Assembly: GCA_910586065.1 (NCBI GenBank)
Contig: CAJUGI010000001.1
Coordinates: 229,616-293,615 of the forward strand
Direction: 5' to 3'
DNA: 64,000 nucleotides
DNA from: an uncultured Christensenella sp.
GTDB taxonomy: Bacteria > Bacillota > Clostridia > Christensenellales > Borkfalkiaceae
Under the pieces are notes generated by a model. The model was not told the origin of the DNA. It did not search any database and saw only the letters and a list, made by a program, of their open reading frames with translations. Below, piece after piece: positions 32,289 to 51,620 of this stretch. Within the stretch, counting starts at the first letter, position 1. Every line of letters begins with the position of its first letter. The translations under genes were made by a program, and so were the position numbers.

Positions 32289-32888
32289 ATGAATAAATAC
32301 GCAAACGCAAAATTTATTACGAGCGCCGCAGGTCCGCAGCAGTTTTTAAAGACGGATAAGCCCGTAATAGCCGTAAGCGGCAGGTCAAACGTGGGCAAAT
32401 CAAGCTTTATCAACCTTCTTGCGGGGCGCAAACAGCTTGCAAGGGTTTCAAAGGAGCCGGGGCGCACCCGTCTTATCAATTACTTTGATTACGGCGGCTT
32501 TATCCTTGCCGACCTCCCCGGTTACGGCTACGCAAAGGTCAGCAAGGAAGAAAAATTAAAATGGGCGCGTCTTTTGGACGAATTTTTTGCCGAAGAGGGG
32601 CACATATGCCACGTTTTGGCGCTTGTCGACTGCCGTCACGAGCCCACCGCCGACGATATTCAGATGGTGGAGTTTCTCTATTCAAAAATAATCCCCTTTA
32701 CGGTTATCGCCACCAAGGCGGACAAAATTTCCAAAGCCGAAGGGGCGCGCAGCAAAATAAGAATAGCCGCCGCTTTAAAGTGCGGAGCGGACGACGTGAT
32801 TGTAACTTCGTCGCAAAAGCGCACGGGGCTTGAAAGCGTAATCAAAAGAATACAAAACGTAATTACATACGGAGAAGAAAATGCCTGA
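32289..32888 (+). CDS. engB: Ribosome-biogenesis GTPase EngB/YsxC
   Basis: The start is trimmed to MNKYANAKFITSA, with AAAGGA upstream. G1 'GRSNVGKSSFIN', 'DLPGYGYAKVS' and 'TKADK'. It lies downstream of lon, as in Bacillus. Confidence 0.93.
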   Translation: MNKYANAKFITSAAGPQQFLKTDKPVIAVSGRSNVGKSSFINLLAGRKQLARVSKEPGRTRLINYFDYGGFILADLPGYGYAKVSKEEKLKWARLLDEFFAEEGHICHVLALVDCRHEPTADDIQMVEFLYSKIIPFTVIATKADKISKAEGARSKIRIAAALKCGADDVIVTSSQKRTGLESVIKRIQNVITYGEENA

Positions 32889-33603
32889 ATTTTTAAAAAC
32901 CCCGGCGGGGCACGCATTACTCGGCGTAATAATCGCGGTGGTGCTCATAATTTTTATAGACCTCAATTACAAGTTCTTCATGAAGGCGGTTTTAGACTTT
33001 TTCTTTGCGCTTATTATAGCGGCAATCCTCTTATTCCCGCTTATTATTCCCCTTTCGATAATCTCTAAGGTAAGGGCGGGGCAAACGTACGAAAGTACGC
33101 CGTATATGGGGGTTAAAGGAAAAATAATCCGCCTTAAAACCTTTGCCGGCGTAAAGTGCGGCTTAAAATATATTCCACGGCTTTTCGATATTATGGCAGG
33201 CAAACTCAGTTTTGTCGGCGTAAAACTCTTAAACGTTTCCGACGGCGCTTTAATTGACGACGATTATCTTTCGCGTTTCAACGCCCGCCCCGGGCTCGTG
33301 TGCCATTTATCGCTTAAAGGCGACGAAGGTTTAACTTACGAAGAGATGTTCGCCTTGGACGAACGCTACGCAAAAAAGCGCGAACTGTTCACCGACTTAT
33401 TCGTTTTATTAAAATCCGCCGTTTTAAAAATCCGCGGCGAAGGCAAAAGTTATTTTGGCGAAGCCGCAAAAATGAGCTACGGCGAAGCGCTGTTAGTCCG
33501 CGGCGAAATCAGTAAAGAAGATTTTGAGCAGGCGAAGGAATACGGCAACGACGCCGTTGCCGAAGCGGACAAAACGACGGATTTCCGTAAAAAACGCATA
33601 TAA
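32881..33603 (+). CDS. Divergent bacterial sugar-transferase (PglC/WbaP C-terminal domain)-like membrane protein, probably non-canonical
   Basis: N-terminal re-entrant-type helices. 'RLKTF', 'YIPRLFDIMAGKLSFVGV' and 'RPGLVCHLS' align with KFRTM, DELPQLxNVLxGxMSxVGPRP and PGxTG, but the Asp-Glu of DELPQ is replaced by KY. Confidence 0.55.
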   Translation: MPEFLKTPAGHALLGVIIAVVLIIFIDLNYKFFMKAVLDFFFALIIAAILLFPLIIPLSIISKVRAGQTYESTPYMGVKGKIIRLKTFAGVKCGLKYIPRLFDIMAGKLSFVGVKLLNVSDGALIDDDYLSRFNARPGLVCHLSLKGDEGLTYEEMFALDERYAKKRELFTDLFVLLKSAVLKIRGEGKSYFGEAAKMSYGEALLVRGEISKEDFEQAKEYGNDAVAEADKTTDFRKKRI

Positions 33604-33760
33604 GCTGCGCATAACTTTGTTGCGCTGCGGCAAATTTCAGTCAATTACGCTTAGTAAGCTCCTTCATGTTTTGCTCGCGAGTCTCGTTCTGCCTGCTTCT
33701 CTGCGTTTTAGGGGTTGCGTAATCGCTCCCGCAATTAGCTCTACAATAAATAATTTAAGG
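33604..33760 (+). repeat. Conserved intergenic element, copy A (fills the whole intergenic space upstream of the SGNH hydrolase gene)
   Basis: About 80% identical by eye over ~130 nt to 45458..45590, with one 1-nt indel. The shared blocks are listed in the finding at 33604..33760. Confidence 0.75.
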
Positions 33761-33768
33761 TAAATAAT

Positions 33769-34920
33769 ATGTCGAAGTGGGTAACCTTTTGGGGCAACGC
33801 AACTTCTGTTGCCGACCGCCGACCCGAAACGTACGCAAAAAACTTAACCTTGCGATATCCTATAAATTGCCCTTTCGGCGGCAATACATTAAGGCTTCAC
33901 TTTTCCAACTTCTGCGGAACGGAGCCGGTAACCTTGTCGCAAGTCACGGTTGCCCCCACAATATCCCGCCGCGAAATCAATTTAAAGGACGCGGCTTTGG
34001 TCACTTTCGCCGGTAATGAAAGCGTAACTATCCCAGCGGGCGAAGAAATTTTTTCGGATGAAATCAGTTTCCGCGTAAAGCCCCTCGGCACGGTTTCCGT
34101 AAGTATCTATTTAAAGGACTTCACTCAAATGCGCTCGGCGGTGGTAATAACCGGTCCGCTTTCGGGCGGTTTTTATTCCGTCGGCAATCAAACGCTTACC
34201 TCGGTTCTGCCTTTAAACGAAACGCGCACCACGCAAACTTACTACTTTTTTACTGGCGCCGACGTGTTTACAGAAGATAACAATCGCGCGGTAATCTGCT
34301 ACGGTGATTCCATAACTTCCCAAAACTGGCCTGATGAATTACAGCTTTTATGCAACGCCGACCCCTACAACCAAACGGCAATAATCCGCCGCGCGGCAAG
34401 CGGCACGCGGGTTTTGCGCGAGTACAGCTGTATCACCTACGAAAGTTACGGGCTCTGCGGCAAACGTCGTTTCGAGCGCGAAATTTCCACCGTGAGCGGC
34501 GCGGTCGCCGTCATAATCCAGCAGGGAATAAACGACGTAATCCACCCCGTAGGCACGGAAGTAAATCCTTTCCGCCCCATGTCGGATTTACCGACGGCAC
34601 AGGAGTTGGAAAACGGTTTAAAGTTTTATCTCGACGTGGCGAAAAAGCATAATTTAAAAACTTTCGTCGGCACGCTTCTGCCAATTTTCGGTTGGCGCAC
34701 TTACGCGCCTTTCCGCGAAGATTTAAAAGAAGAAATAAACGCGTGGCTCCGCGGCAGTTGCGGAGCGGACGGTTTAATCGACTTCGACAAGGCTTTGCGC
34801 TCCGAAAAAGACGCGCGCGCCTTCAAACAGGGTTTTGACAGCGGCGACCATCTGCACCCGAGCGAGTCCGCCTACAAACAAATGGCTTTAACCGCCTTCG
34901 ATAAAATAAAATTTATATAA
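33769..34920 (+). CDS. SGNH/GDSL-family hydrolase with an N-terminal beta domain
   Basis: Block I 'ICYGDSITSQ', block III 'QQGINDV' and block V 'DSGDHLHPS'. Confidence 0.85.
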   Translation: MSKWVTFWGNATSVADRRPETYAKNLTLRYPINCPFGGNTLRLHFSNFCGTEPVTLSQVTVAPTISRREINLKDAALVTFAGNESVTIPAGEEIFSDEISFRVKPLGTVSVSIYLKDFTQMRSAVVITGPLSGGFYSVGNQTLTSVLPLNETRTTQTYYFFTGADVFTEDNNRAVICYGDSITSQNWPDELQLLCNADPYNQTAIIRRAASGTRVLREYSCITYESYGLCGKRRFEREISTVSGAVAVIIQQGINDVIHPVGTEVNPFRPMSDLPTAQELENGLKFYLDVAKKHNLKTFVGTLLPIFGWRTYAPFREDLKEEINAWLRGSCGADGLIDFDKALRSEKDARAFKQGFDSGDHLHPSESAYKQMALTAFDKIKFI

Positions 34921-35853: not shown

Positions 35854-35959
35854 AATAAGGCGCGGTCTACAAACTGCGCATAACTTTGTTACGGCTCCGT
35901 TTTACTCGTTTCTAATCCGCGGAGCGCATAGCTCCCGCGATACGCGATATTTTATTACT

Positions 35960-36724: not shown

Positions 36725-36795
36725 TCCGCATATAATTTTGCCGGCACGGCACTAAAAGCTACAAAATTCATTATAATAAACTCGGAGGGTTTATC

Positions 36796-37983
36796 ATGAA
36801 AAACTTTATATTCATTTCCCCGAATTTTCCCGAAAACTACTGGAAATTCTGCCGCGAACTCAAAAACAACGGGTTCCGTGTGCTCGGTATAGGCGACTGC
36901 CCTTACGACAATCTCACCTATGAGCTTAAAAACTCCCTGCACGAGTATTACAGGGTAAACTCGTTGGAAAATTACGACGAAGTTTACCGCGCCGTCGCAT
37001 TCTTTTCGTTCAAGTACGGCAAGATAGATTTTATCGAAAGCAACAACGAATACTGGCTCGAGCGCGACGCCGCATTACGCACCGAATTCAACGTCGAAGG
37101 TTTCAAAAACAAGGACGTCAAAAAAATCAAACTTAAATCGCAGATGAAGCGTTACTACAAAAAAGCGGGCGTGCCGGTCGCTCGCCATTACGTGGTAAAA
37201 TCTCTTGCCGGATGCAAAAAATTTATCGATAAAGTCGGCTATCCCGTAATCGTCAAACCGGATAACGGCGTTGGCGCCAACGATACGCACAAGTTGAAAA
37301 ACGAGGAGGAGTTAAAAGCTTTCCTCAAAAACAAACTTTCCGTTTCTTATATTATGGAAGAGTACATAGACGGCGAAGTGGTAACGTACGACGCGATAAT
37401 CGACAGTAACGGCAACGCGATTTTCGAAAGCGGCAACATAACTCCCCGTTCCTTAATGGACGTGGTAAACGACAACGGCAACTGTATGTTCTATATAGTA
37501 AACGGGCTTTCCCCCGATATCCGCACGGCAGGCGTAAAAACCGTTAAAGCCTTCGGTGTGAAAAGCCGTTTCGTCCACTTCGAATTTTTCCGTCTTTTAT
37601 CAGACCAGCATATCGGCAAAAAGGGCGATATAGTCGCGCTCGAAGTAAATATGCGCCCCTGCGGCGGAATCGCGCCTGATATGCTCAACTATGCAAACAG
37701 CACCGACGTTTACAAAATCTGGGCGGATATGTGCGCGTACGACAGTACGCTCGTGCCTTCGGGCGAAAAATATTTCTGCGGTTTTGCAGGACGTCGCGAC
37801 GGCAGAGAGTTTTTCTATCACGAACAGGATATAGTCGATAAGTACAAAAACAATTTAAAGGCTGTCGGCAGGGTTCCGCAGGTTCTTTCCGGCGCAATGG
37901 GCAACGTAATGTATATTGCCAATTTCAAAACCGAAGAGGAATTAAAAGCCTTCTATTCCGACGTCTTAAAAGAAAAAGATTAA
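36796..37983 (+). CDS. ATP-grasp domain protein (carboxylate-amine ligase type), substrate unknown
   Basis: 'GYPVIVKPDNGVGANDTHKL', 'IMEEYIDGEVVTYDAI' and 'ALEVNMRPCGG' fit the ATP-grasp fold. GGAGGG ribosome-binding site. Confidence 0.8.
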   Translation: MKNFIFISPNFPENYWKFCRELKNNGFRVLGIGDCPYDNLTYELKNSLHEYYRVNSLENYDEVYRAVAFFSFKYGKIDFIESNNEYWLERDAALRTEFNVEGFKNKDVKKIKLKSQMKRYYKKAGVPVARHYVVKSLAGCKKFIDKVGYPVIVKPDNGVGANDTHKLKNEEELKAFLKNKLSVSYIMEEYIDGEVVTYDAIIDSNGNAIFESGNITPRSLMDVVNDNGNCMFYIVNGLSPDIRTAGVKTVKAFGVKSRFVHFEFFRLLSDQHIGKKGDIVALEVNMRPCGGIAPDMLNYANSTDVYKIWADMCAYDSTLVPSGEKYFCGFAGRRDGREFFYHEQDIVDKYKNNLKAVGRVPQVLSGAMGNVMYIANFKTEEELKAFYSDVLKEKD

Positions 37984-38009
37984 AACGCACATAAGCTGCA
38001 TATAACTTT

Positions 38010-38047
38010 GCCGCCCGCGCCTTTCAAACGCGGGCGGCGTTTTTTTG
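38010..38047 (+). terminator. Intrinsic terminator after the ATP-grasp gene
   Basis: 10-bp GC stem gccgcccgcg/cgcgggcggc followed by ttttttt. Confidence 0.85.
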
Positions 38048-38212
38048 CGCTTTCGCAATAATTTCCCCTAAAATTCACCTTGCGGTTTTTAAAAATACAA
38101 ATTCCCGCGCTAAAATAATAACAAGTAAACGCAAAATAAAATCAAAGCAAAGTTCTAAACGCAAATTCTTTGCAATAAGTTATTATACACATAGATTTTG
38201 CGGAGGCGGATA

Positions 38213-39688
38213 ATGCTTGATTACAACGTTTACGAGGACATCGCCCAAAGAAGCGGCGGAGATATCTACATAGGGGTGGTGGGGCCTGTCCGTACGGGCA
38301 AATCCACGCTTATAAAAAAGTTTATGACTGAACTTGTCATTCCCAACGTGGAGGACGGCAATTCCAAAAAGGTAATGACGGACGAACTGCCGCAGTCCGG
38401 TTCCGGCAAGTCGGTAATGACTACCGAACCCAAGTTCGTGCCCGCAAAGGCAGCGCACGTCAAAATCGAAAACGCTTCGGCAAACGTAAGATTCGCCGAC
38501 TGCGTGGGCTTTATAACTAAGGGCGCAAACGGTTTCGAAGAGGACGGAAAACCCCGTCTGGTCTCCACGCCGTGGAGCGAAAAACCATTGCCCTTCACCG
38601 AAGCTGCCGAACTCGGCACCGAAAAGGTGATATCCGAACATTCCACAATCGGGCTTTGCGTTACTACGGACGGCAGTATAGCCGACATCCCGCGCGACGG
38701 CTACGTTGAGGCGGAAGAGCGCACGGTCTCCCGTCTTAAAAGCTCCGGCAAACCTTTCGTAATCGTCCTTAACTGCGTCGAGCCGGAAAAGGCTCCCGCA
38801 AAGCGGCTTAAAGACGAACTCGAGGCAAAGTACGGCGTAACCGTGCTTGCAACCAACTGCGAAAAACTCGACGCGGCGGCGCTTTTAAATATTCTCAAAG
38901 CCGTGCTGTTCGAGTTCCCCGTAACCTGTTTCGACGTTGACGTTCCCGACTGGACGCGCTTTTTGCCGCCCGACAGTTCGGCGGTTTGCGAACTTCTGGA
39001 AAGGGTAAAAGCCGCCGCCGCAAATATCTTTAAAATGAAAGACTGCGCCGTGTTCGACGATATGCTTTCGGACTGCAAATACTGGAAGAGGGAACTTTCG
39101 GTAAACTTAAGTCTCTCCGACGGCAAAGCAAAGGTTACTGCAAGCGTTCAGGAAGGAATATTCTTTGCGCTGCTTTCCGAAATCGCGGGCGATGAAATAA
39201 CCGACGAATATACCCTGATGCGCTATGTAAAGGGCAGTTCCGAGGCAAAGAAAAATTACGACAAAATCAAGGACGCTTTCGAGTGCGCCAAAGTCAACGG
39301 CTACGGCATAGTCCAGCCCGACGACACGGATATGAGCCTTGAAGAGCCTAAAGTAATCCGTCAGGGCGGCAGTGTGGGCATAAAGCTCCGCGCAACCGCG
39401 CCCAGCTACCACATCGTAAAAATAGACGTAACCGGCGAGGTCAGCCCCATAATGGGAAGCGCCGGACAGAGCGAGGGCATAGTGCAGGGAATGATGCAGG
39501 GCTTCGAAAAAAATCCCGACGATATGTGGGATACGAATGTGTTCGGCAAGTCTCTCCGCGGAATGGTAAAGGAAGGGCTTTCAGGCAAAGTAACCTGTAT
39601 GCGCGACGAAACGAAAACCAAAATGCGCCGCGCTATATCCAGAATCGTCAACGAAGGACGCGGCAGCGTCATATGTATAATACTGTAA
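38213..39688 (+). CDS. spoIVA: Stage IV sporulation protein A (spore-coat morphogenetic ATPase)
   Basis: The start is trimmed to MLDYNVYEDIAQRSGGDIYIGVVGPVRTGKSTLIKKFM, which parallels B. subtilis SpoIVA, with GGAGG 7 nt upstream. The full-length similarity pattern runs to the C-terminal '...RIVNEGRGSVICIIL'. Confidence 0.95.
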   Translation: MLDYNVYEDIAQRSGGDIYIGVVGPVRTGKSTLIKKFMTELVIPNVEDGNSKKVMTDELPQSGSGKSVMTTEPKFVPAKAAHVKIENASANVRFADCVGFITKGANGFEEDGKPRLVSTPWSEKPLPFTEAAELGTEKVISEHSTIGLCVTTDGSIADIPRDGYVEAEERTVSRLKSSGKPFVIVLNCVEPEKAPAKRLKDELEAKYGVTVLATNCEKLDAAALLNILKAVLFEFPVTCFDVDVPDWTRFLPPDSSAVCELLERVKAAAANIFKMKDCAVFDDMLSDCKYWKRELSVNLSLSDGKAKVTASVQEGIFFALLSEIAGDEITDEYTLMRYVKGSSEAKKNYDKIKDAFECAKVNGYGIVQPDDTDMSLEEPKVIRQGGSVGIKLRATAPSYHIVKIDVTGEVSPIMGSAGQSEGIVQGMMQGFEKNPDDMWDTNVFGKSLRGMVKEGLSGKVTCMRDETKTKMRRAISRIVNEGRGSVICIIL

Positions 39689-40365: not shown

Positions 40366-43300
40366 ATGGCAAAAAACGTTTACGATGACGACGAATCTAT
40401 GGAATATCGTCCCCCGAAGAAGGCGGACGTTATCCTCAAAATGGAGCGTGAAATCTCCGCAAGACAGGCTCAGATGCAAACCGAAATTCAAAATTCGGCA
40501 AAGCAGATAGAGGCGGTGCTTGCCGAGCTTCAGAACATCAGAAAGGATTCCGAAGAAGCCGCTAACAAAAACGGCGAACTTATCGGCGCCGTTCAGGGCG
40601 ACAACACGTCTTTAAAGCGCGAAATCAAATATCTCGCCGTTCAGAACGAGAGTATTTTCAATTCGCTTTCCGAAAGAATCAACAAGCTTGAAGAAGCGCT
40701 CGGAAACATTAACGCGGCGGAACCCGTTGCGCAACGGGAAGAAAAGAGCGTTTCTGCCGAAATCGATTACGACGTTCTGGCTGATAAAGTTGCCGAAAGA
40801 ATCGTCGTTCCCGCACCCGTCGTTCAGAGCGACGGCGCACCCGTGGTATATCAGACCGAAAGGCAAGAAGTGGATTACGACCTTCTCGTCGATAAAATCG
40901 TTGCAAGACTGCCTGTACAGGACGATGCTCCTTTATCGGCGAAAGCGGATATCGACGTGGAAGAACTTGCAAGAAAGGTTGCCGAGAACGTAAGCGTTCC
41001 CGCACCCGTATACGCCGAGGCGGCGCCCGCATATGCCGGAGCTGTTCCTGCGGCTCAGGCGGTTACCGTAAGCGCCGAAATAGACTACGACTGCCTTGCC
41101 GAAAAAGTCGCAAGCCGTATTCCCGCACCCGAAGTCCACACAGTATATTCCGAAGCCGCACCCGCGGCGGTTCCCGTTACCGCGGAAATCGATTACGAAG
41201 AACTCGCCGAAAAGGTTGCAAGCAAAATTCCCGCGCCTCAGGTTCAGGCGGTTTATTCCGAAGCCGCACCCGCGGCGGTTCCCGTTACCGCGGAAATCGA
41301 TTACAACGAACTGGCAGATAAAGTTATTTCCCGCATTCCTCTGCAGGAGGCGGTTTCACCCGATTACGTAGCGGCTAAAATAGCCGAGCAGATAATACTT
41401 CCGCAGGCTCCCGAAGTTAAGTTCGACTATGATGAGCTTGCAGGCAAGGTTGCCGAAAAGATAACGTTGCCCCAAGCTGAAGTTCACGCCTATGCCGAAG
41501 CTGCTCCCGCGGCGGTCGCTGCGGAGCTTGACTATGACGCGCTTGCCGAAAAGGTTGCCGAAAAGGTTTCCCTTCCCGAAAACGCCGTCGATTACGAACT
41601 TCTTGCAGACAACATTGTTGCGCGTATTCCCGTACAGGAGAGCATTTCTCCCGAATACGTCGCTTCCCTTATTTCCGAAAATATCCCCGAACGCGAAATA
41701 GTGACCGCGGACGGACAAATCGATTTGGACGCGCTTGCCGGCAAAATAGCGGAACGCATCCCCGCGCAGGAAGCGCAGGCGGTTTATTCCGAAGCCGCTC
41801 CCGCGGCGGTCACTGCGGAGCTTGACTACGACGCGCTTGCCGAAAATATCGTTTCGCGTATTCCCGCACAGGAAACGCAGACGTTTGAAAACGTTGAAAT
41901 CGACTACGAAGCGCTCGCTGAAAAGCTTGCCGGAAGAATTCAACCCTCCGGCGGCGTTGTTGACGAAGAAGAGCTTTCCGACAGAATCGCGTTAAAAGTC
42001 GGTTCACTCAAAGCGGACGACTTCGACGTGCTTGTTGACGACGAGGGTTGCGAATCAATATCCAGAACGATTGCCGAAAAACTCGACTACGAACTTATTG
42101 CGTCGGCGGTTGCCGAAAAACTCCGTGCAGAGCTCGACCCCGCCAATGCGGAAGAAACCGATTACGAGGAAATGGCAAACCGCATAAGCGAAAAGATAAC
42201 GGTTGCGGGCATAAACGAGGATGCAATCGCGGATAAAGCCGCTGCGGCGCTTTCAAATTATCTCCCCGAAATCGACGCAGACGAAATTGCGGATAAAGTT
42301 GCAAATCAGGTAATCAGCGCCCTGCCTTCGGTAGATAACGAATATATCTCGTCATCAGTTGCCGAAAAGATTATAGAAGCACAGGCTGAAAAAGACTTCG
42401 ACGTAATTATCGACGAGGAAGGCGTTGAAACAATTTCCGAAAGACTCGCCGAAGTTGCAGGCAACGATAACACGACCGAACGTTTTAACAGCGTAGATAA
42501 CGACCTTGCCGAAATCAAGGCTCTGCTTGCAAACGGAGCATATGTCGTTCACGAAATCGAAACCGTTCCCGCAGAGGAACAGCCTGCAATCGAAGAGCCC
42601 GAAGACGAACCCGAGGAGACTCTCGTTACCGTCAGCGACATAGTCGAAGAGGTTGAATCAGGACAGGATGAAGAGGAAATAACCGAAGAACAGCCCGAAG
42701 AAGAGGTTGTTGAGGAAGTTCCCGAAGAGACCGAAGAACCCGTTGAAGAAACGGTTGAAGAGGTCACCGAAGAGGAAATAACCGAAGAACAGCCCGAAGA
42801 AGAGGTTGTTGAAGAAGTTCCCGCCGAAACTCAGGTTGAAACCGCCGAAACTGAGGAAAACTCCGAAGAAGACGGCGACGTTGAAGAATTTACTTTGGAC
42901 GATTTGACGGACGGACAGGGCGAAGGCGGCGTAGACTTTGCAAATATGATGCGCTACAACCGCAGTTTCATTGCAAGGATTATCCAGAGCACCGACGACC
43001 AGAAGGGTTATTACGGCGAAGTAAGAAACGCGCTGTTAAGCTACAAAAAGGTCAACTCAAATATTGCCTGGGGCGCAGAACGTTTCCATAAGGGCAGAGA
43101 AACCATTGCCCGCTTTAAAATCCGCGGTAAGACTCTTTGTCTGTATCTTGCGCTCAATCCCAAGGAACACGAGTATTCGGTTTATCATCATAAAGACGTT
43201 TCCGGCGTGAGAATGTTCGACGGTACGCCTATGATGATAAAGGTTCAAAGTCCCCGCGGCGTAAAGAAAGCAATAAGACTTATCGATGAAATGCTCGAAG

Positions 43301-43416
43301 CCCGCGGAGGAATTAAGAGGAACGTTCCTCAGCGTGATTACGCGGCTATGTATCCTTACGAAACTATCGAAGAGCTTATCGAAGACGGACTTGTAAAGGA
43401 CGTAAACAAAAAGTAA
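40366..43416 (+). CDS. 1016-aa acidic repeat protein: N-terminal coiled coil, ~18 'DYxxLAxKVAxxI' repeats, Glu-rich tract, C-terminal globular domain
   Basis: GAGGTGG ribosome-binding site. The repeats and the C-terminal ~150-aa non-repetitive domain are listed in the finding at 40366..43416. Confidence 0.85.
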   Translation: MAKNVYDDDESMEYRPPKKADVILKMEREISARQAQMQTEIQNSAKQIEAVLAELQNIRKDSEEAANKNGELIGAVQGDNTSLKREIKYLAVQNESIFNSLSERINKLEEALGNINAAEPVAQREEKSVSAEIDYDVLADKVAERIVVPAPVVQSDGAPVVYQTERQEVDYDLLVDKIVARLPVQDDAPLSAKADIDVEELARKVAENVSVPAPVYAEAAPAYAGAVPAAQAVTVSAEIDYDCLAEKVASRIPAPEVHTVYSEAAPAAVPVTAEIDYEELAEKVASKIPAPQVQAVYSEAAPAAVPVTAEIDYNELADKVISRIPLQEAVSPDYVAAKIAEQIILPQAPEVKFDYDELAGKVAEKITLPQAEVHAYAEAAPAAVAAELDYDALAEKVAEKVSLPENAVDYELLADNIVARIPVQESISPEYVASLISENIPEREIVTADGQIDLDALAGKIAERIPAQEAQAVYSEAAPAAVTAELDYDALAENIVSRIPAQETQTFENVEIDYEALAEKLAGRIQPSGGVVDEEELSDRIALKVGSLKADDFDVLVDDEGCESISRTIAEKLDYELIASAVAEKLRAELDPANAEETDYEEMANRISEKITVAGINEDAIADKAAAALSNYLPEIDADEIADKVANQVISALPSVDNEYISSSVAEKIIEAQAEKDFDVIIDEEGVETISERLAEVAGNDNTTERFNSVDNDLAEIKALLANGAYVVHEIETVPAEEQPAIEEPEDEPEETLVTVSDIVEEVESGQDEEEITEEQPEEEVVEEVPEETEEPVEETVEEVTEEEITEEQPEEEVVEEVPAETQVETAETEENSEEDGDVEEFTLDDLTDGQGEGGVDFANMMRYNRSFIARIIQSTDDQKGYYGEVRNALLSYKKVNSNIAWGAERFHKGRETIARFKIRGKTLCLYLALNPKEHEYSVYHHKDVSGVRMFDGTPMMIKVQSPRGVKKAIRLIDEMLEARGGIKRNVPQRDYAAMYPYETIEELIEDGLVKDVNKK
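41146..41304 (+). repeat. Intragenic tandem repeat, 108-nt period
   Basis: The 51-nt block tattccgaagccgcacccgcggcggttcccgttaccgcggaaatcgattac occurs identically at 41146 and 41254. Related copies lie near 41491 and 41779. Confidence 0.85.
42670..42830 (+). repeat. Intragenic tandem repeat, 99-nt period, in the Glu-rich tract
   Basis: gaagaggaaataaccgaagaacagcccgaagaagaggttgttga is repeated at 42670 and 42769, encoding EEITEEQPEEEVVEEVP. Confidence 0.85.
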
Positions 43417-43431: not shown

Positions 43432-43461
43432 GCGGGGGTTGATGGTTTTGTCAACCCCCGC
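43432..43461 (+). terminator. Terminator-like hairpin after the repeat-protein gene
   Basis: 11-bp stem gcgggggttga/tcaacccccgc with an 8-nt loop. The U-tract is weak. Confidence 0.5.
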
Positions 43462-43486
43462 ATTATATGTAAACGGAGTAGTAAAT

Positions 43487-45439
43487 TTGGAAAGAGAAAA
43501 TTCAAGCACGGTTTCACAAAAGAACAGACGGCGCACGGGCAATTCAAACGGAAACAATTCAAAAAACAGCGGAGCAAAATCGCCCGATACCGTAATGGTA
43601 AACGTTAATCACGGTTCGCAACGCGGTCAAAAACCTCATTCCGCAGTCGCACAAAAGCGCTCCCGCGGGCAAAAATCAACCCGCGAGGTAAATCAGCGGA
43701 CAAGCGCTCAAAAGCAAAAGCAGTCACCGCAATCCGCCGCACCGCTCTTAAAAGCCGTAAAACAACCTCGTAAAAACGTCAGGCAGAACGATAAAAAGAC
43801 GGTTAAAATAGTATTTTTAGGCGGCGTCGGCGAAATCGGCAAAAATATGACGGCAATCGAATGCGGCGACGATATAATAATAATCGACGCGGGTGCGATT
43901 TTTCCCACCGAGGAAACCCCGGGTTTCGACCTTATTGTTCCGGACATTACTTATTTAATAGAAAACCGCAAAAAAATCCGCGGTCTTTTACTCACACACG
44001 GTCACGAGGACCACATAGGCGGAGTACCTTATCTTTTAAAGGAGCTTAAAGTTCCCGTAATCGGCACGCGCCTTACCTTGGCGCTCGTCGACAACAAACT
44101 CCGCGAGCACCGCATAAACGACGCAAAAGAAATAACGGTCGAACCCGGTCAGATAATTCAGCTCGGTTGTTTCAAAGTTCGGGCAGTAAACGTAAATCAT
44201 TCCATAGCCGGCTCTCTTGCTTTTGCCGTTCAAACTCCGCAGGGCGTAATATTCCACAGCGGCGACTATAAAATAGACTTAACGCCCGTTGCAGGCGAAC
44301 CCATCGATTTAAAGACCATTTCCGATTTCGGAGCGTCCGGAGTTCTTTTGTATATGGGCGAAAGCACCAATATCGAGCGCGCGGGTTTCACCATGAGCGA
44401 AACGGTGGTAGGCACTACTCTGGACAGGCTTTTCGGCGAAAATTTAAAACGCAGACTCATTGTGGCGACCTTTGCCTCAAACGTCCACAGACTTCAGCAG
44501 ATAATCGATTTAGCCGTAAAATATAAGCGTAAAGTCGCGCTTTCGGGCAGAAGTATGCTCAACGTAGTTGAAGCCGCCGAAAAAATCGGTGAAATCAACA
44601 TTCCCGACGGTGCAATCGTAGACGTCTCCAAAATCAGGAATATGCGCGACAGCGAAATAGTAGTCGTTTCAACCGGCAGTCAGGGCGAACCGATGAGCGC
44701 GCTTTCCCGTATGTCCAACGGCGACAATCAGTTCGTAACCGTCGGCGACAACGATACGGTAATAATTTCCGCTTCTCCAATCCCCGGCAACGAAAAACTC
44801 GTATACAGGGTAATAAACAATCTTTATAAGTTGGGCGCGGAAGTCGTTTACGAAAGTCTTCAAAATATCCACGTTTCGGGGCACGCCTGCAGGGAAGAAC
44901 ACAAAATTATGCATCATCTCTTAAAGCCCAAATTCTTTATCCCCGTGCACGGCGAATACAGACATCTTAAAAAGCACGCCCAGCTTGCCGAAGAACTCGG
45001 CATGCAGTCCGGACGCATAATAATTCCCGACATAGGAAATTGCGTTCTTTTAACGGCGCACGGTATGAAACTCGGCGAAAGCGTGCCTTCCGGCTCGCGC
45101 TTAATCGACGGCGAGGGTATCGAGGACGAAAAGGCAAGCACGGTAATAGAGGACAGGCGCCAACTTTCCGAAGAGGGCTTGTTCATAGTTTCCATAACGG
45201 TTTCGGGCGGCGTTGTTCTGGGCGAACCGGCAATCAATTCGCGCGGATTTGTGTTCGATTTCCACCGCGATTACGACAGGGAAATCCGCTCGGTTATAAA
45301 CCGCGCAATCGACGGTTACGACCTCTCTCTGGGCACAGTAGACGAATTAAAACGCACCATAAAGCGCTCGCTTGCAAATTATTTGTATAAAAAGACCAAG
45401 CAGTCCCCTATGATTGTGCCGGTAGTAGTAGAACTTTAA
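43487..45439 (+). CDS. rnj: Ribonuclease J with a basic, low-complexity N-terminal extension (start uncertain)
   Basis: Core 'IVFLGGVGEIGKNMTAIE', 'LLTHGHEDHIGG' and 'HVSGHACREE'. I prefer TTG 43487, which lies 9 nt after GGAG and downstream of the hairpin. The ORF track starts at 43439. No start codon lies close to the core, so an extension of at least ~65 aa is real. Confidence 0.9.
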   Translation: MERENSSTVSQKNRRRTGNSNGNNSKNSGAKSPDTVMVNVNHGSQRGQKPHSAVAQKRSRGQKSTREVNQRTSAQKQKQSPQSAAPLLKAVKQPRKNVRQNDKKTVKIVFLGGVGEIGKNMTAIECGDDIIIIDAGAIFPTEETPGFDLIVPDITYLIENRKKIRGLLLTHGHEDHIGGVPYLLKELKVPVIGTRLTLALVDNKLREHRINDAKEITVEPGQIIQLGCFKVRAVNVNHSIAGSLAFAVQTPQGVIFHSGDYKIDLTPVAGEPIDLKTISDFGASGVLLYMGESTNIERAGFTMSETVVGTTLDRLFGENLKRRLIVATFASNVHRLQQIIDLAVKYKRKVALSGRSMLNVVEAAEKIGEINIPDGAIVDVSKIRNMRDSEIVVVSTGSQGEPMSALSRMSNGDNQFVTVGDNDTVIISASPIPGNEKLVYRVINNLYKLGAEVVYESLQNIHVSGHACREEHKIMHHLLKPKFFIPVHGEYRHLKKHAQLAEELGMQSGRIIIPDIGNCVLLTAHGMKLGESVPSGSRLIDGEGIEDEKASTVIEDRRQLSEEGLFIVSITVSGGVVLGEPAINSRGFVFDFHRDYDREIRSVINRAIDGYDLSLGTVDELKRTIKRSLANYLYKKTKQSPMIVPVVVEL

Positions 45440-45457
45440 TTACAAACCTTATATACT

Positions 45458-45596
45458 TCACATAACTTTGTTGCGCTGTGGCAACTTTCATTCATTTACC
45501 GCAAAGTAAACTCCTTCAAGTTTTTCTCTCGCGTCTCGTTATGCCCGCATCTCTAAGGTTTAAGGTTGCCGTAATCGGTTACCGCAATTATAATTT
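45458..45596 (+). repeat. Conserved intergenic element, copy B (fills the intergenic space upstream of the O-methyltransferase gene)
   Basis: Paralog of 33604..33760 in the same orientation. It also runs from just after one gene's stop codon to the next gene's start. Confidence 0.75.
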
Positions 45597-46259
45597 ATGG
45601 AATTCTCTTACGCACACAAAAACACAAGCTGCGGCGAGCGTCAGACAGCAACCGCGCAGTTCAACGTTCCGCGGTTAAGCGCGCAAGTTCAGGAACTTCG
45701 CCTTGCGGCTTTCGAACGGGAAATTCCCGTATCCGACGATGAAACGCTGTGCCTTCTTAAAACTCTGCTTACCGCAAAGCAGCCGCAAAATATCCTTGAA
45801 CTCGGCACCGCCGTGGGAATATCCGCCGCAGTTATGCTTTCAGTATGCCCTAACGCTAAGGTTACCACAATCGAGCGCGACGAAAATTTTTATAGCGAAG
45901 CGTTAAAAAACTTTAAAAGTCTCGGCATATCCCAAAGTGTAACGGCAATCGCGGGCGACGCCGGTGAAGAAATCCAAAAGCTTGACGATAAGTTCGACTT
46001 CATTTTTCTCGACTGCGCTAAGGTGCAGTACGTAAAATATCTTCCGTGTCTGAAACAGCTCTTAACAAAAGGCGGCATTCTAGTTGCGGACGATATTCTG
46101 TTGTTCGGCTACGTCACGGGCGAAAAGGAAGTTCCCAAAAAGCGAAAAATGCTTGTCGAGCACGTAAAGGAATATATAACCGCCGTAACAACGGATAACG
46201 AACTTCAAACCACAATTTTGAACGTCGGCAACGGCGTTGCGTTATCGGTAAAATTATGA
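45597..46259 (+). CDS. Class I SAM-dependent O-methyltransferase (YrrM/TrmR-like)
   Basis: 'ILELGTAVGISA', 'DFIFLDCAK' and 'GGILVADDILLFG'. It is followed by a U32 peptidase gene, as in the B. subtilis yrrM-yrrN-yrrO locus. No obvious ribosome-binding site precedes ATG 45597. Confidence 0.8.
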   Translation: MEFSYAHKNTSCGERQTATAQFNVPRLSAQVQELRLAAFEREIPVSDDETLCLLKTLLTAKQPQNILELGTAVGISAAVMLSVCPNAKVTTIERDENFYSEALKNFKSLGISQSVTAIAGDAGEEIQKLDDKFDFIFLDCAKVQYVKYLPCLKQLLTKGGILVADDILLFGYVTGEKEVPKKRKMLVEHVKEYITAVTTDNELQTTILNVGNGVALSVKL

Positions 46260-50780: not shown

Positions 50781-50796
50781 AAATAAGTGACGTAAA

Positions 50797-50825
50797 GCCG
50801 CCCGCGCAGGTGTTGCGCGGGCGGC
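50797..50825. terminator. Bidirectional terminator hairpin, copy 1 of 3 identical copies
   Basis: gccgcccgcgc-aggtgtt-gcgcgggcggc. It serves dinB (+) and the first HTH gene (-). Identical copies lie at 51621 and 52421. Confidence 0.8.
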
Positions 50826-50838
50826 TTGCTGATTTTGT

Positions 50839-51306: not shown

Positions 51307-51331
51307 TATTCCCTATTACTTACAAAATTAC

Positions 51332-51360
51332 TTGCTTTTTGAAGTAGTAGGGTATATAAT
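51332..51360 (+). promoter_or_regulatory. Promoter of small gene A with overlapping imperfect palindrome
   Basis: TTGCTT-N17-TATAAT. The inverted repeat CCCTATTACTTACAAA (51311-51326) / TTTGAAGTAGTAGGG (51338-51352) brackets the -35. Confidence 0.6.
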
Positions 51361-51399
51361 TTCATTACACGAAATGCAAAAAAATTAAGGAGTTTTGGA

Positions 51400-51612
51400 A
51401 TGGATAAAAGACAAAAGCAAAATCACATATTTGTAAAGGACAGCGGAGTGGAGGCGTTGGACGGCAGAACGGACAGTTTGAGTTTGCTGTTGGACTTGAA
51501 AGTTCTGATTAAGGAATATTACACTGCAACGTTTACGGCGGACGAGAGGGGGCTTGTGATAGGTTTTAACAACGGTCAGAAATTTAAAATATCGGTGGAA
51601 GAAATAAAGTAA
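51400..51612 (+). CDS. Small acidic protein (70 aa), unknown function (copy A)
   Basis: AAGGAG ribosome-binding site. 61 of the last 64 residues are identical to copy B. Confidence 0.7.
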   Translation: MDKRQKQNHIFVKDSGVEALDGRTDSLSLLLDLKVLIKEYYTATFTADERGLVIGFNNGQKFKISVEEIK

Positions 51613-51620
51613 CTTAAAAA

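What the first reader, a model, noticed from the sequence alone, without database searches (positions are those of the whole stretch)
33604..33760. Two-copy conserved ~140-nt intergenic element (second copy 45458-45596) that fills the gap between a stop codon and the next start codon
The two intergenic regions lie 12 kb apart, upstream of an SGNH hydrolase gene and a TrmR-like methyltransferase gene. They are about 80% identical over ~130 nt and share orientation. The conserved blocks are CATAACTTTGTTGCGCTG, GGCAA, AGTAA, CTCCTTCA, GTTTT, TCTCGTT, TCTCT, GTAATCG and CCGCAATTA.

The surrounding genes are unrelated, so the element itself is conserved. It contains a CUCCUUC anti-Shine-Dalgarno-like block on the plus strand (GAAGGAG on the minus strand). 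It has no terminator-like GC hairpin with a U-tract. It ends right at the downstream start codon, and copy B leaves no recognisable ribosome-binding site for its gene.

Possibilities include a cis-regulatory 5' leader (riboswitch-like or protein-binding), an antisense small RNA, or a miniature repeat family. I could not match it to any RNA family I know.
Basis: seen in the sequence. Interest (0 to 1): 0.6.

Follow-up and report, generated by a model that had tools for sequence, protein, structure and literature searches.

The report
Stop-codon-anchored structured RNA repeat family
The two look-alike intergenic stretches are copies of an apparently uncatalogued family of ~125-nt repeats in gut Clostridia that fold into a long hairpin and almost always begin right at the stop codon of the upstream gene. 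This suggests an RNA module acting on the 3' end of messages, not a leader for the next gene.

Summary
Window 33590-33713 and 45443-45565 (+ strand) are two copies, 84% identical, of a ~125-nt element.

**Further copies.** A covariance model also finds a 68-nt mini copy at 35859-35926 and a degenerate copy at 37981-38068 whose apical part is a canonical terminator. It finds about 130 further copies in uncultured gut Clostridia MAGs and metagenomes (Coproplasma, Gallimonas, Scatosoma, Christensenellaceae-labelled).

**Structure.** The family folds as an irregular rod. About 91% of pair cells are paired, 30 of 36 pairs show compensatory changes, and an independent set replicates this. G.U pairs favour the + strand. 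No Rfam family, plasmid or phage matches.

**Placement.** The element starts within about 15 nt of the stop codon (mostly TAA) of a co-oriented upstream gene in about 90 of 91 ORF-adjacent copies. Distance to the downstream gene varies widely (median 158 nt). Upstream genes are unrelated housekeeping genes. Some copies are followed by a normal terminator. Metatranscriptome contigs run through the window copies.

**Evolution.** Copies turn over between relatives, form tandem arrays, and are partly decayed in this window.

**Best reading.** It is a REP/ERIC-like dispersed repeat that acts in cis as a 3'-UTR or intercistronic RNA structure on translation termination or mRNA stability. It is not a riboswitch, 5' leader or antisense RNA. 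The function is inferred, not shown.

The parts
33590..33713 (+). Copy A of the rod element (full length, partly decayed). Helices: P1 33591-33596 / 33704-33709, P1b 33602-33605 / 33695-33698, P2 GCAUAAC 33609-33615 / GUUCUGC 33686-33692, P3 33621-33630 / 33673-33681, distal stem 33632-33640 / 33662-33671, apical hairpin 33644-33648 / 33654-33658.
   Evidence: CM R1 gives 116.6 bits, E 1e-34. Pair map. MFE keeps the basal helices but z is only -0.3.
33601..33603 (+). TAA stop codon of the upstream sugar-transferase-like ORF (32881-33603). It lies inside the element's first internal loop (AUAUAA), so the P1 5' arm encodes the last four codons (K K R I).
   Evidence: ORF list. Gap of -14. The same -14 class recurs in 4 + 10 other copies.
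33659..33665 (+). CUCCUUC, the anti-Shine-Dalgarno-like block. It sits on the 3' side of the internal loop below the apical hairpin. The family consensus is CUCC(C/U)UC.
   Evidence: Sequence. Family consensus with >=90% conserved CUCC.
33711..33737 (+). Second small module of copy A, GGGGTTGCGTAATCGCTCCCGCAATTA (hairpin plus CCGCAAT). It recurs 3' of, 5' of, or between rod copies in other genomes.
   Evidence: Alignment of A and B. The GCTCCCGC(AAT) motif sits next to many copies. It is absent from the ortholog in L164.
45443..45565 (+). Copy B of the rod element, lying between the RNase J stop (45437-45439) and the O-methyltransferase start (45597). P1 is 45444-45449 / 45556-45561.
   Evidence: CM gives 108 bits. 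Pair map. Its ortholog in L017 scores 141.9 bits and shows compensatory changes in the apical hairpin. RNA contigs from 4 runs span it.
45564..45590 (+). Second small module of copy B, GGTTGCCGTAATCGGTTACCGCAATTA.
   Evidence: Alignment. A promoter-like TTGCCG-17-TATAAT match overlaps it but ends 3 nt before the ATG, so it cannot serve that start.
35859..35926 (+). Mini copy containing only the basal half (P1 GCGCGG/CCGCG, AAAC/GUUU, GCAUAAC/GUUUUAC). It starts 5 nt after the stop of the S33-hydrolase ORF and is followed by GCTCCCGC at 35931-35938.
   Evidence: CM gives 36.1 bits, E 9e-9, with 60 model positions replaced by 3 nt. The relative L164 has a full 125-nt copy at the same site.
37981..38068 (+). 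Degenerate copy. The 5' basal half is TAAAACGCACATAAGCTGCATATAACTTTG, with TAA serving as the stop of the ATP-grasp ORF. A canonical terminator follows (stem 38010-38019 / 38029-38038, T7 38040-38046), then the 3' basal remnant GCGCTTTCGCAAT.
   Evidence: CM gives 16.9 bits, E 0.014. Sequence. RNA contigs end at 37986/38000 and restart at 38147.
36725..36795 (+). Probable remnant (TCCGCATATAATTTTGCCGGCACGGCA...), at the site where the relative L164 carries a full copy (L164:5594-5741).
   Evidence: Alignment of orthologous spacers. CM hit in L164. There is no significant CM hit in the window here.

Best explanation
The two stretches are members of a dispersed family of ~125-nt structured repeats found in gut Clostridia. 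Each copy lies on the sense strand of the gene upstream and begins at, or a few nucleotides from, that gene's stop codon, usually UAA and often itself part of the outermost helix P1. Each copy is transcribed as the 3' UTR or intercistronic spacer of that message.

The RNA folds into one long irregular hairpin with these parts:
- a sequence-variable closing helix P1;
- a small loop (AUA / UCU);
- P1b;
- a nearly invariant P2 (GCAUAAC/GUUCUGC or GCAAUAC/GUCUUGC, each with a conserved U.C mismatch);
- P3 (UGCGC/GCGCG);
- a variable distal stem;
- an apical hairpin, next to a conserved CUCC(C/U)UC block.

Inferred mechanism: a ribosome reaching the stop codon must melt P1. The rest of the rod then stands directly behind the terminating ribosome. 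There it could slow or tune termination, as REP elements closer than 16 nt to a stop codon do in E. coli. It could also act as a 3'-exonuclease barrier, an RNase site or a protein-binding site that sets the stability of the upstream message independently of the downstream cistron. The invariant P2/P3 core suggests a specific trans-acting partner.

The family multiplies and turns over like REP/ERIC/BOX-type repeats: tandem arrays, composite modules, replacement and decay at fixed sites. The window's own copies are partly decayed.

Shown: the family, the structure, the strand, the stop-codon anchoring, and co-transcription consistent with RNA contigs. Inferred: the effect on termination or stability, the existence of a partner, and the mode of spread.
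For: **Family.** An exact 18-mer scan and a 3'-core scan of species-representative genomes found true copies only in Clostridia MAGs. CM R1 found 63 hits in 56 loci and 72 hits in an independent metagenome set.

**Structure.**
- RNAalifold predicts 36 pairs.
- On 60 sequences, 91.8% of cells are paired against 73% in shuffles and 32-52% in slid controls. 30 of 36 pairs have compensatory changes.
- The independent set replicates this: 90.6% paired, 26 of 36 pairs compensatory.
- Consensus-like copies fold to the same rod by MFE, with z -3.5 to -4.7.

**Strand.** There are 125 G.U/U.G cells against 38 A.C/C.A. The reverse strand of copy A scores 11.7 against 116.5 bits.

**Anchoring.**
- 44 of 62 copies abut a long co-oriented ORF with gaps mostly -4..+5, and the stop is TAA in 40 of 44.
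- 37 of 40 copies sit in the first 10% of their intergenic space; the median upstream gap is 0 nt and the median downstream gap 158 nt.
- The independent set replicates this: 47 of 68 copies abut an ORF, 44 within +-15 nt, and 36 of 47 stops are TAA.
- No copy was seen in the opposite orientation to its upstream transcription unit.

**Context.** Upstream genes are unrelated housekeeping genes: rplA, EF-G/TypA/LepA/EF-Tu, NrdD, GyrA, DnaK, Pta, RNase J and others. Canonical terminators follow at least 17 of 63 copies.

**Transcription.** Metatranscriptome contigs run from RNase J through copy B into the next gene in 4 runs, and through the mini copy.

**Long persistence.** Copies follow rplA in three different MAGs, with different but still-paired helices.

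**Precedent.** In E. coli, REPs closer than 16 nt to a stop codon down-regulate translation (PMC12306157 citing Liang et al. 2015). ERIC-type repeats are co-transcribed and alter mRNA stability (PMC3184786).
Against: - No experiment or end-mapping data were available. The RNA runs are held as assembled contigs, which give no 5'/3' ends and can contain DNA.
- The window copies and several others are decayed, shortened or lost in close relatives. This argues against strong selection at every site.
- Orthologous copies are often not each other's nearest relatives, and interiors are swapped between subfamilies. That pattern is typical of selfish or concerted-evolving repeats.
- A simple barrier function would not need the invariant P2/P3 sequence.
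- P1 is AU-rich and may not impede a ribosome.
- A subset of copies (7-10 of 63) lies after a terminator, where little transcription is expected.
Confidence: 0.5

Rival explanations
1. The element is selfish, non-autonomous mobile DNA (MITE-like, or hairpin-dependent like IS200/IS605-RAYT substrates). The hairpin is required on single-stranded DNA for mobilisation, the copies have no function for the host, and stop-codon adjacency reflects target preference plus purifying selection against harmful insertions.
For: - The element is multi-copy and dispersed, with tandem arrays.
- Composite units are duplicated to several sites within one genome.
- Close relatives differ by presence, absence, replacement or size at the same site, and a related strain carries 72 nt in place of 33607-33766.
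- The nearest neighbour is usually a non-orthologous copy in another genome.
- The window copies are decayed.
- G.T pairs are also tolerated in ssDNA hairpins, and the sense strand of leading-strand genes is the lagging-strand template.
Against: - The terminal helix P1 is not conserved between copies, so there are no shared TIRs.
- No consistent target-site duplication was seen by inspection.
- Every classifiable copy is co-oriented with the upstream gene and anchored to its stop, including copies between convergent genes. A replication-strand bias alone would leave some copies anti-oriented.
- No longer element shares the ends: every true hit of the 18-mer scan is a complete short element.
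- There is no match in plasmid, phage or viral collections.
- Copies persist behind rplA in three MAGs with structure kept.
Confidence: 0.25
2. The element is a 3'-UTR-derived (or independently transcribed) trans-acting small RNA family. Its conserved pyrimidine-rich CUCC(C/U)UC block pairs with Shine-Dalgarno sequences of target mRNAs, or of its own mRNA as in the icaR 3'-UTR of S. aureus (recalled from memory).
For: - The anti-SD-like block is conserved.
- 26 of 63 copies end in a U-run of at least 4, and others are followed by terminators.
- Several sibling copies occur per genome.
- The family is structured and strand-specific.
Against: - No conserved promoter is possible, because the 5' end abuts or overlaps coding sequence.
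- The block is partly base-paired in the rod.
- RNA contigs read through copies into downstream genes.
- Mini copies lack the block altogether.
- No target prediction or processing evidence exists.
Confidence: 0.1
3. The element is an unusual long-stem intrinsic terminator or attenuator for the upstream gene.
For: - P1 is often flanked by an A-run and a U-run (UAAAACGCA...UGCGUUUU), and 26 of 63 copies have a U-run of at least 4.
- Copy 3 in the window merges the basal module with a real terminator.
- Behind rplA in L119 and L102 no other terminator precedes the next promoter.
Against: - The stem next to the U-run is short and AU-rich.
- At least 17 of 63 copies are followed by a separate canonical terminator, whether or not they have a U-run.
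- RNA contigs run through copy B and the mini copy.
- Many copies have no U-run.
Confidence: 0.06
4. The element is a cis-regulatory 5' leader (riboswitch or protein-binding) for the downstream gene.
For: In the window both full copies precede a co-oriented gene by 31-55 nt, and copy B's gene lacks an obvious SD.
Against: - The distance to the downstream gene ranges from about 8 to over 600 nt.
- 13 of 40 downstream genes are on the other strand.
- Terminators intervene.
- Downstream and upstream genes are unrelated in function.
- There is no Rfam match.
Confidence: 0.03
5. The element is an integron attC-like recombination site at the 3' end of gene cassettes.
For: It is an imperfect palindrome of attC-like length that starts at or overlaps the stop codon of the preceding ORF, in fixed orientation. 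Structure is conserved more than the sequence of the outer helix. AAC...GTT is frequent at the base of P1.
Against: - The preceding genes are core housekeeping genes at conserved chromosomal positions, such as rplA followed by the L10 leader.
- Copies lie 2-12 kb apart with operons between them.
- The central part is conserved and the ends are variable, which is the reverse of attC.
- R''/R' consensus sequences are not matched.
- Wobble pairs favour the sense (top) strand.
- No integrase was seen in the window ORFs examined.
Confidence: 0.02

Closest known systems
ERIC / IRU elements of Enterobacteriaceae (~127-bp imperfect palindromes)
   Same: The size is almost identical (~125 nt). Both are single long imperfect hairpins, lie in transcribed intergenic regions (often at 3' ends of genes), are co-transcribed, and have moderate copy number with presence/absence differences between relatives. 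ERIC is reported to alter stability of the upstream mRNA (PMC3184786).
   Different: ERIC is classed as a MITE with conserved TIRs and TA target duplication and occurs in both orientations (PMC3184786). Here the terminal helix differs from copy to copy, no consistent TSD was seen, all copies are co-oriented with the upstream gene, and nearly all start at its stop codon. There is no sequence similarity, and the host clade is different (Clostridia).
REP / BIME elements, in particular REPs closer than 16 nt to a stop codon (Liang, Rudd and Deutscher 2015, as summarised in PMC12306157)
   Same: Both are dispersed extragenic palindromes in mRNA 3' regions that form mosaics with other small motifs. 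In E. coli, stop-proximal copies stall terminating ribosomes and lower expression of the upstream gene. That is the geometry shared by about 95% of ORF-adjacent copies here.
   Different: REPs are 20-40 nt, GC-rich, carry a conserved GTAG-type head, occur in hundreds of copies (often as inverted pairs, REPINs), and are tied to a RAYT transposase. Only 11-50% of them are stop-proximal. This element is three to four times longer, has a multi-loop rod with an invariant core, and forms direct tandem arrays. RAYT linkage was not tested.
Correia/CREE (Neisseria), RUP and BOX (pneumococcus), bcr1 (Bacillus cereus group). Properties beyond those in PMC3184786 Table 1 are recalled from memory.
   Same: All are ~100-160-nt intergenic repeats that are transcribed, fold into stable RNA hairpins and can affect processing or stability of neighbouring messages. 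BOX is modular, as are the rod plus GCTCCCGCAAT module here.
   Different: Those families have conserved termini and TSDs (TA for Correia and RUP), and none is reported to be anchored to stop codons in a single orientation.
Integron attC sites
   Same: Both are folded imperfect palindromes of similar length that begin at or overlap the stop codon of the preceding ORF in fixed orientation.
   Different: The context is housekeeping genes rather than cassettes. The conserved centre and variable ends are the reverse of attC. The core-site consensus is absent. The folded strand is the sense strand.

Membership tests
Any Rfam 15 RNA family | Covariance-model match at or near the family's gathering score | tested here: not met
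   No hit at gathering threshold in the window or in 14 loci holding about 25 copies (only the L10 leader and a tRNA were found elsewhere). At E<10 over copy A there are only two chance-level hits, 13.8 and 13.9 bits against thresholds of 45 and 37.
MITE (ERIC / Correia / RUP type) | Terminal inverted repeats whose sequence is shared by the copies | tested here: not met
   The outer helix P1 pairs in 92% of cells, but all six of its pairs vary with compensatory changes (AU, CG, GC and UA all occur). Only an AAA/UUU tendency is shared.
MITE (ERIC / Correia / RUP type) | Direct target-site duplication (e.g. TA) flanking each copy | tested here: inconclusive
   Inspection of the flanks shows TA...TA is compatible with some copies (L024, L047, L015) but not others (L021, L060, L003, L119, winB). 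A TA duplication would also be indistinguishable from two extra base pairs of P1.
MITE (ERIC / Correia / RUP type) | Insertion in either orientation relative to neighbouring genes | tested here: not met
   All classifiable copies are co-oriented with the upstream gene or upstream terminator. None shows the mirrored arrangement, even between convergent genes.
MITE (ERIC / Correia / RUP type) | A related autonomous IS carrying the same ends around a transposase gene | tested here: inconclusive
   All true hits of the 5'-core 18-mer scan are complete short elements. No split copies were seen in CM searches apart from truncation by contig ends. Whole genomes could not be scanned.
MITE / dispersed repeat in general | Multiple dispersed copies per genome with differences between close relatives | tested here: met
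   At least 6 copies were found in each of several MAGs from partial sampling. There are four in 12 kb of the window. Sites are replaced, shortened or lost between the window and L164. A related strain carries a 72-nt allele at locus A.
REP / REPIN (RAYT-associated) | Short (20-40 nt) GC-rich palindrome with a conserved tetranucleotide head, arranged as inverted pairs | tested here: not met
   The unit is ~125 nt with 41-58% GC, arrays are direct tandem repeats, and there is no GTAG-type head.
REP / REPIN (RAYT-associated) | Presence of a cognate RAYT (TnpA_REP) gene in the genome | not testable with these tools
   Only 8-kb pieces of MAGs could be fetched. None of the 46 flanking proteins scanned had a Y1 transposase domain among the listed families.
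Riboswitch / 5' leader | Fixed position upstream of functionally related genes, with an expression platform | tested here: not met
   Downstream distance ranges from 8 to over 600 nt, 13 of 40 downstream genes are on the opposite strand, terminators intervene and gene functions are diverse.
Intrinsic terminator | GC-rich stem immediately followed by a U-tract that ends transcripts | tested here: not met
   Only 26 of 63 copies have a U-run of at least 4, and the adjacent stem is AU-rich. Separate terminators follow at least 17 of 63 copies. RNA contigs read through. The exception is copy 3 (37981-38068), which contains a true terminator.
Integron attC | R'' RYYYAAC ... R' GTTRRRY core sites with a variable centre, following promoterless cassette ORFs near an integrase | tested here: not met
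   The core consensus is not matched (for example GTTTTAG, GTTTAAG). The centre is invariant and the ends variable. Upstream genes are housekeeping genes.
Structured cis-acting RNA (generic) | Secondary structure supported by covariation on the transcribed strand | tested here: met
   30 of 36 and 26 of 36 pairs carry compensatory changes in two independent sets, and the shuffled and slid controls are far lower. The G.U excess is on the sense strand. The counts come from CM-fitted alignments, which lean towards the model.
Protein-coding small ORF | A conserved open frame with a start signal on either strand | tested here: not met
   Open frames differ in phase between copies, lengths vary by 1-2 nt, and only 1 of 60 copies has an SD-plus-start arrangement on the minus strand.

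The most novel reading that the evidence does not exclude
The element is a translation-termination-coupled RNA device that homes to, or is retained only at, the position immediately 3' of (or overlapping) UAA stop codons of transcribed genes. The terminating ribosome opens P1. This switches the invariant P2/P3 core and the pyrimidine-rich 3' strand between a sequestered and an exposed state, which is read by a clade-specific partner (a protein, an RNase or the ribosome itself). The family propagates in a strictly strand-specific way, without TIRs or TSDs, by a mechanism not yet described for bacterial repeats, possibly RNA-mediated.
Probability: 0.15. Interest if true: 0.8.

Novelty: new variant of a known kind. 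Interest (0 to 1): 0.58.

Why it matters
Small structured intergenic repeats are well studied in Proteobacteria and in a few Bacilli and streptococci. They are hardly described in the uncultured gut Clostridia that dominate animal microbiomes.

This family adds a well-supported RNA structure that no Rfam family matches and that text searches of the held literature for four conserved blocks did not find. It also has an unusually clean positional rule: one orientation, starting at the stop codon.

If the rule reflects function, the family would be a natural, widely reused module for tuning termination or mRNA 3' stability. It would extend to another phylum the idea, so far shown for E. coli REPs, that stop-proximal structures regulate translation. 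If the rule reflects insertion specificity, it points to a strand- and stop-codon-specific mobilisation mechanism.

Practically, the covariance model lets annotators mask about 125 nt behind many genes in these MAGs. It also explains short C-terminal extensions that the element encodes, such as KKRI* in the window.

Tried and rejected
1. **Rfam.** Searches at gathering and at permissive thresholds gave nothing.
2. **Mobile-element collections.** Viral contigs gave only chance hits of the 18-mer in unrelated coding sequence. Plasmid and phage collections gave no match.
This gave unconvincing structures (z 0.7 to -1.0). The structure became clear only from relatives.
4. **Alternative local 5' hairpin CGCA/UGCG.** It is pairable in 91.5% of cells but invariant, so it is neither supported nor excluded.
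5. **Coding potential.** Long stop-free stretches on both strands stem from the A-poor 3' half (my reading). Frames are not conserved.
6. **Stops in all three frames at the 5' end.** I tested whether the element carries these, as some insertion elements do. Only 2 of 60 and 0 of 72 copies do.
7. **TA target duplication.** The evidence is inconsistent (inspection).
8. **Promoter inside the element.** The only good match (45566-45594) ends 3 nt before the ATG and cannot serve it.
9. **GC skew.** I used it to try to separate replication-linked from transcription-linked orientation. The element strand has positive skew in 34 of 44 loci, but 8-kb pieces are too short and the signal is confounded by coding strand.
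10. **Recovering the 72-nt allele at locus A.** A gapped pattern scan of metagenome contigs gave 0 hits.
11. **Empty site behind rplA in L143.** The spacer there still resembles a P1 5' arm, so it looks like a deletion remnant rather than a virgin site.
12. **Literature.** Text searches for four conserved blocks gave no paper. A recent preprint on intergenic features does not mention such an element.
Full report
**1. The observation**

Window 33590-33775 and 45440-45610 align in the same orientation at 84% mean column identity. The shared 18-mer CATAACTTTGTTGCGCTG occurs exactly twice in 64 kb, against 0.06 expected.
- Copy A lies between a sugar-transferase-like ORF (32881-33603) and a GDSL/SGNH hydrolase (33769-34920).
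- Copy B lies between RNase J (43439-45439) and an O-methyltransferase (45597-46259).

Its boundaries and the 'two-copy' label need correction, as described below.

**2. It is a family**

I scanned one genome per prokaryotic species for the exact 18-mer. This gave 35 loci. Seventeen of them carry the whole element, not just the 18-mer. All seventeen are uncultured Clostridia: Candidatus Coproplasma and several 'Clostridia bacterium' MAGs. Several MAGs contribute more than one contig.

A second scan with the 3' core added Candidatus Gallimonas, Scatosoma, Borkfalkiaceae and Christensenella/Christensenellaceae-labelled MAGs. NCBI files these under Clostridia, partly incertae sedis.

A covariance model built from 19 copies gave these results:
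- In 56 Clostridia loci it found 63 matches.
- In an independent set of 80 metagenome loci, fetched with a pattern for the other P2 subtype, it found 72 matches.
- In the window it found four + strand matches: 33590-33713 (116.6 bits), 45443-45565 (108 bits), a 68-nt mini version at 35859-35926 (36 bits), and a degenerate copy at 37981-38068 (17 bits, E 0.014).

No Rfam 15 family matches any copy. Nothing similar is in the plasmid, phage or viral-contig collections. Text searches for four conserved blocks found no paper.

**3. Structure**

RNAalifold predicts one long irregular hairpin of 36 pairs. From the base outwards it consists of:
- **P1**: 6-9 bp. Examples are AAAACGCA/UGCGUUUU in copy A, AAACCUUA/UAAGGUUU in copy B, and CCCGCGUUU/AAACGCGGG in L013.
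- **A small loop**: (U/G)AU on the 5' side and CU(C/G/A) on the 3' side.
- **P1b**: AAGCG/CGCUU, or AUAC/GUAU.
- **P2**: nearly invariant, either GCAUAAC/GUUCUGC or GCAAUAC/GUCUUGC. The conserved U.C mismatch shifts by one position on both strands together.
- **P3**: an internal loop, then UGCGC/GCGCG.
- **A variable distal stem.**
- **A 2-bp helix** flanked by UCA and CUC.
- **A 5-bp apical hairpin**: for example CUUAC/GUAAG, CGUAC/GUACG or CAUAC/GUAUG.

Support from pair counts is strong in both sets.

| Measure | 60 sequences | Independent metagenome set |
|---|---|---|
| Pair cells that are standard pairs | 91.8% | 90.6% |
| Same, in column shuffles | 73% | 72.5% |
| Same, with the 3' partner slid | 32-52% | 35-54% |
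| Pairs with compensatory changes | 30 of 36 | 26 of 36 |
| Shuffles reaching any observed measure | 0 of 500 | 0 of 500 |

These alignments are fitted to the model, which inflates the numbers somewhat. However, the compensatory changes are already obvious in the plain MAFFT alignment.

Consensus-like copies fold to the same rod by free-energy minimisation alone, with z -3.5 to -4.7. The window's copies keep the basal helices but are weaker (z -0.3 and -2.1). They are partly decayed members.

The mini copy keeps only P1, P1b and P2. In the fourth copy the apical domain is replaced by a canonical terminator (GCCGCCCGCG...CGCGGGCGGC followed by T7). This suggests that the basal half is the persistent core.

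**4. Strand**

Wobble pairs are asymmetric: 125 G.U/U.G cells against 38 A.C/C.A. The reverse strand of copy A scores 11.7 bits against 116.5. No ORF or SD-start arrangement is conserved on either strand. The folded strand is therefore the sense strand of the neighbouring genes. This removes the antisense-RNA idea.

**5. Position: the unexpected part**

*Upstream anchoring.* In 44 of 62 copies a long co-oriented ORF ends within -14 to +25 nt of model position 1, mostly -4 to +5. The stop codon is TAA in 40 of those 44. In 16 of them the TAA runs straight into the A-run that opens P1 (UAAAACGCA...).

A second recurrent class has the stop in the first internal loop (AUAUAA), so the P1 5' arm encodes the last four residues. 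Copy A belongs to this class (...KKRI*), as do 4 + 10 others.

*Downstream variability.* The downstream side is loose. The median downstream gap is 158 nt against 0 upstream. 37 of 40 copies lie in the first tenth of their intergenic space.

*Replication.* The metagenome set repeats the pattern. 47 of 68 assessable copies abut an ORF end, 44 of them within +-15 nt, and 36 of 47 stops are TAA.

*Copies without an adjacent ORF.* These are second members of tandem pairs, or they follow a co-oriented terminator. No copy was seen in the mirrored arrangement, even between convergent genes.

*Neighbouring genes.* Upstream genes are unrelated, mostly housekeeping: rplA (three MAGs, followed by the L10 leader), EF-G/TypA/LepA/EF-Tu-type GTPases, NrdD, GyrA, an aminoacyl-tRNA synthetase, QueA, Pta, PurH, DnaK, MnmA, SMC and RNase J.

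*Terminators.* A conservative scan finds a separate canonical terminator 40-150 nt downstream of at least 17 of 63 copies, and upstream of 7-10. Only 26 of 63 copies end in a U-run of at least 4.

The element therefore sits in the 3' UTR or intercistronic spacer of the upstream gene. It is not a leader of the downstream one, and it is not itself the terminator.

**6. Transcription**

The species is a mouse-gut bacterium present in many metagenomes and in isolate-type runs. Only assembled contigs of RNA runs were available, so ends and strandedness cannot be read and DNA carry-over cannot be excluded. Within those limits:
- Contigs of four RNA runs run uninterrupted from RNase J through copy B into the methyltransferase gene.
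- Contigs of two metatranscriptomes run from 32803 through locus A and the mini copy.
- Those contigs stop, with adapter sequence, at 37986/38000, just before the terminator of copy 3. A new high-depth contig starts at 38147.

This fits read-through of copies A, B and the mini copy, with termination only at the true terminator.

Across related strains copy B carries 2 differences in 148 nt. The flanking coding sequence carries about 1 per 32-52 nt.

**7. Dynamics**

In the closest available relative (JAIDVM01; SGNH protein 91% identical) three sites can be compared:
- The copy orthologous to A has the same basal stem, but its interior comes from another subfamily, and it lacks the second module.
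- The site of the window's mini copy holds a full 125-nt copy with a different P1.
- A further full copy sits where the window has only a remnant (36725-36795).

Other observations point the same way:
- A related strain in two metatranscriptomes has 72 nt in place of 33607-33766. I could not retrieve that sequence.
- Arrays of up to five contiguous units exist, alternating full and P1-less units.
- Composite units (GCTCCCG, rod, GCTCCCG, rod) are duplicated within one genome.
- Only 18 of 60 copies have their nearest relative in the same genome. Orthologous copies, for example the three behind rplA, are not nearest neighbours.
- Those rplA copies are nevertheless still well-formed in three MAGs (143, 102 and 93 bits). 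A fourth MAG has only what looks like a deletion remnant.

The family thus behaves like a dispersed repeat with turnover and recombination between copies. It also persists long term at some sites with its structure kept.

**8. What it most likely is and does**

The best-supported reading is a REP/ERIC/BOX-like dispersed repeat whose unit is an RNA structure acting in cis on the message of the upstream gene.

*Shown:*
- the family, the fold and the strand;
- the single orientation and the stop-codon anchoring;
- the independence from downstream genes;
- contiguity with mRNA contigs.

*Inferred:* a ribosome arriving at the stop codon has to open P1, which leaves the P1b-P3 rod at its entry channel. 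The rod then tunes termination, serves as a barrier to 3' exonucleases, or serves as a site for an RNase or RNA-binding protein.

*Precedents:*
- E. coli REPs closer than 16 nt to a stop codon lower expression of the upstream gene, by stalling ribosomes just before the stop (Liang et al. 2015, as summarised in PMC12306157).
- ERIC elements are ~127-bp imperfect palindromes that are co-transcribed and change the stability of upstream mRNA (PMC3184786).

The nearly invariant P2/P3 sequences and their genome-wide subtype switches suggest a specific partner. The conserved CUCC(C/U)UC block could pair with SD sequences. Neither idea could be tested here.

I give this reading 0.5.

**9. Rivals**

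- **Purely selfish hairpin-dependent mobile DNA** is the main rival (0.25). It explains the turnover, the arrays and the decay. It does not easily explain the absence of shared termini and TSDs, the 100% co-orientation and the stop-codon anchoring.
- **Trans-acting 3'-UTR-derived sRNA**: 0.10.
- **Odd terminator**: 0.06.
- **5' leader or riboswitch**: 0.03.
- **attC-like site**: 0.02.

The last four are each contradicted by specific results listed under the rival explanations.

**10. Novelty and verdict**

The kind, a structured intergenic repeat, is known. This family is not in Rfam 15 and was not found in the literature I could search, and it comes from a clade where such elements are essentially undescribed.

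It differs from known families in three ways: variable, covarying termini; a single orientation; and a start at the stop codon in about 95% of ORF-adjacent copies. I rate it a new variant of a known kind, of moderate to good interest (0.58). The function remains to be shown experimentally.

Noticed in passing
window 33711-33737, 45564-45590, 35927-35945; also L023, L092, L142, L079, L025, L024, L164: A second small repeat module (...CTTCGTAA-N5-GCTCCCGCAAT(TA), a short hairpin plus CCGCAAT) accompanies many rod copies. It lies 3' of them, 5' of them or between tandem copies, giving BIME-like mosaics. It is missing from the ortholog of copy A in L164.
   Followed up: partly
window 33607-33766 (related strain in runs X32/X33): A closely related strain (95-99% identical flanks) has 72 nt in place of these 160 nt, so locus A is polymorphic within the species. 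The 72-nt sequence was not printed by the read tool, and a gapped pattern scan of metagenome contigs found nothing.
   Followed up: partly
L024, L003, L164 (~4740-4790), L034, L092, L023, L070, L085: Another widespread short repeat, TGTCATTCCGAGCGAAGCGA(A/G)GAATC-like (a hairpin), occurs in the same intergenic regions as the rod element in several MAGs.
   Followed up: no
L142, L079, L022, L029 (downstream of rod copies): A third repeat, ...GGCGCCCCTTnnCAAGGGGAGCTGTCACCG(AAGGCGACTGAGGGG), follows the GCTCCCGCAAT module in two rabbit-gut MAGs.
   Followed up: no
window 40366-43416: A 1016-aa ORF with no convincing Pfam domain is built largely of internal tandem repeats: units of about 35 aa around D-Y-D-x-L-A-x-K...R-I-P, plus a Glu-rich repeated block at 42670-42830.
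   Followed up: no
window 50794-52510: There is a tandem duplication of an ~800-bp unit (250 nt at 92% identity). Each unit carries a double-HTH regulator-like ORF on the - strand (50839-51306, 51663-52100). A 70-aa + strand ORF (51400-51612) lies in the first repeat copy. The same palindromic terminator AAAGCCGCCCGCGCAGGTGTTGCGCGGGCGGCTT occurs three times.
   Followed up: partly
window 45566-45600: The O-methyltransferase ORF (ATG at 45597, conserved in L017) has no recognisable Shine-Dalgarno sequence. A TTGCCG-17-TATAAT promoter-like match ends 3 nt before the ATG, so how this gene's translation starts is unclear.
   Followed up: partly
window 33769-34920: Apart from one close MAG, the SGNH/GDSL hydrolase has its nearest relatives (51-55% identity) in Lachnospiraceae, Oscillospiraceae, Prevotella, Fibrobacter and others. 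This suggests horizontal transfer of this accessory gene block.
   Followed up: no
window 38147-38300: In one metatranscriptome a contig with about 2000x word depth begins, with adapter, at 38147, about 50 nt upstream of the spoIVA ORF (38198-39688). This indicates a strong transcript start there.
   Followed up: no
L010 1433-3753: In this MAG about 2.3 kb separates the rod element behind rplA from the L10 leader. In L119, L102 and L143 the leader follows within about 100-200 nt, so L010 probably has an insertion in the rplA-rplJ spacer.
   Followed up: no
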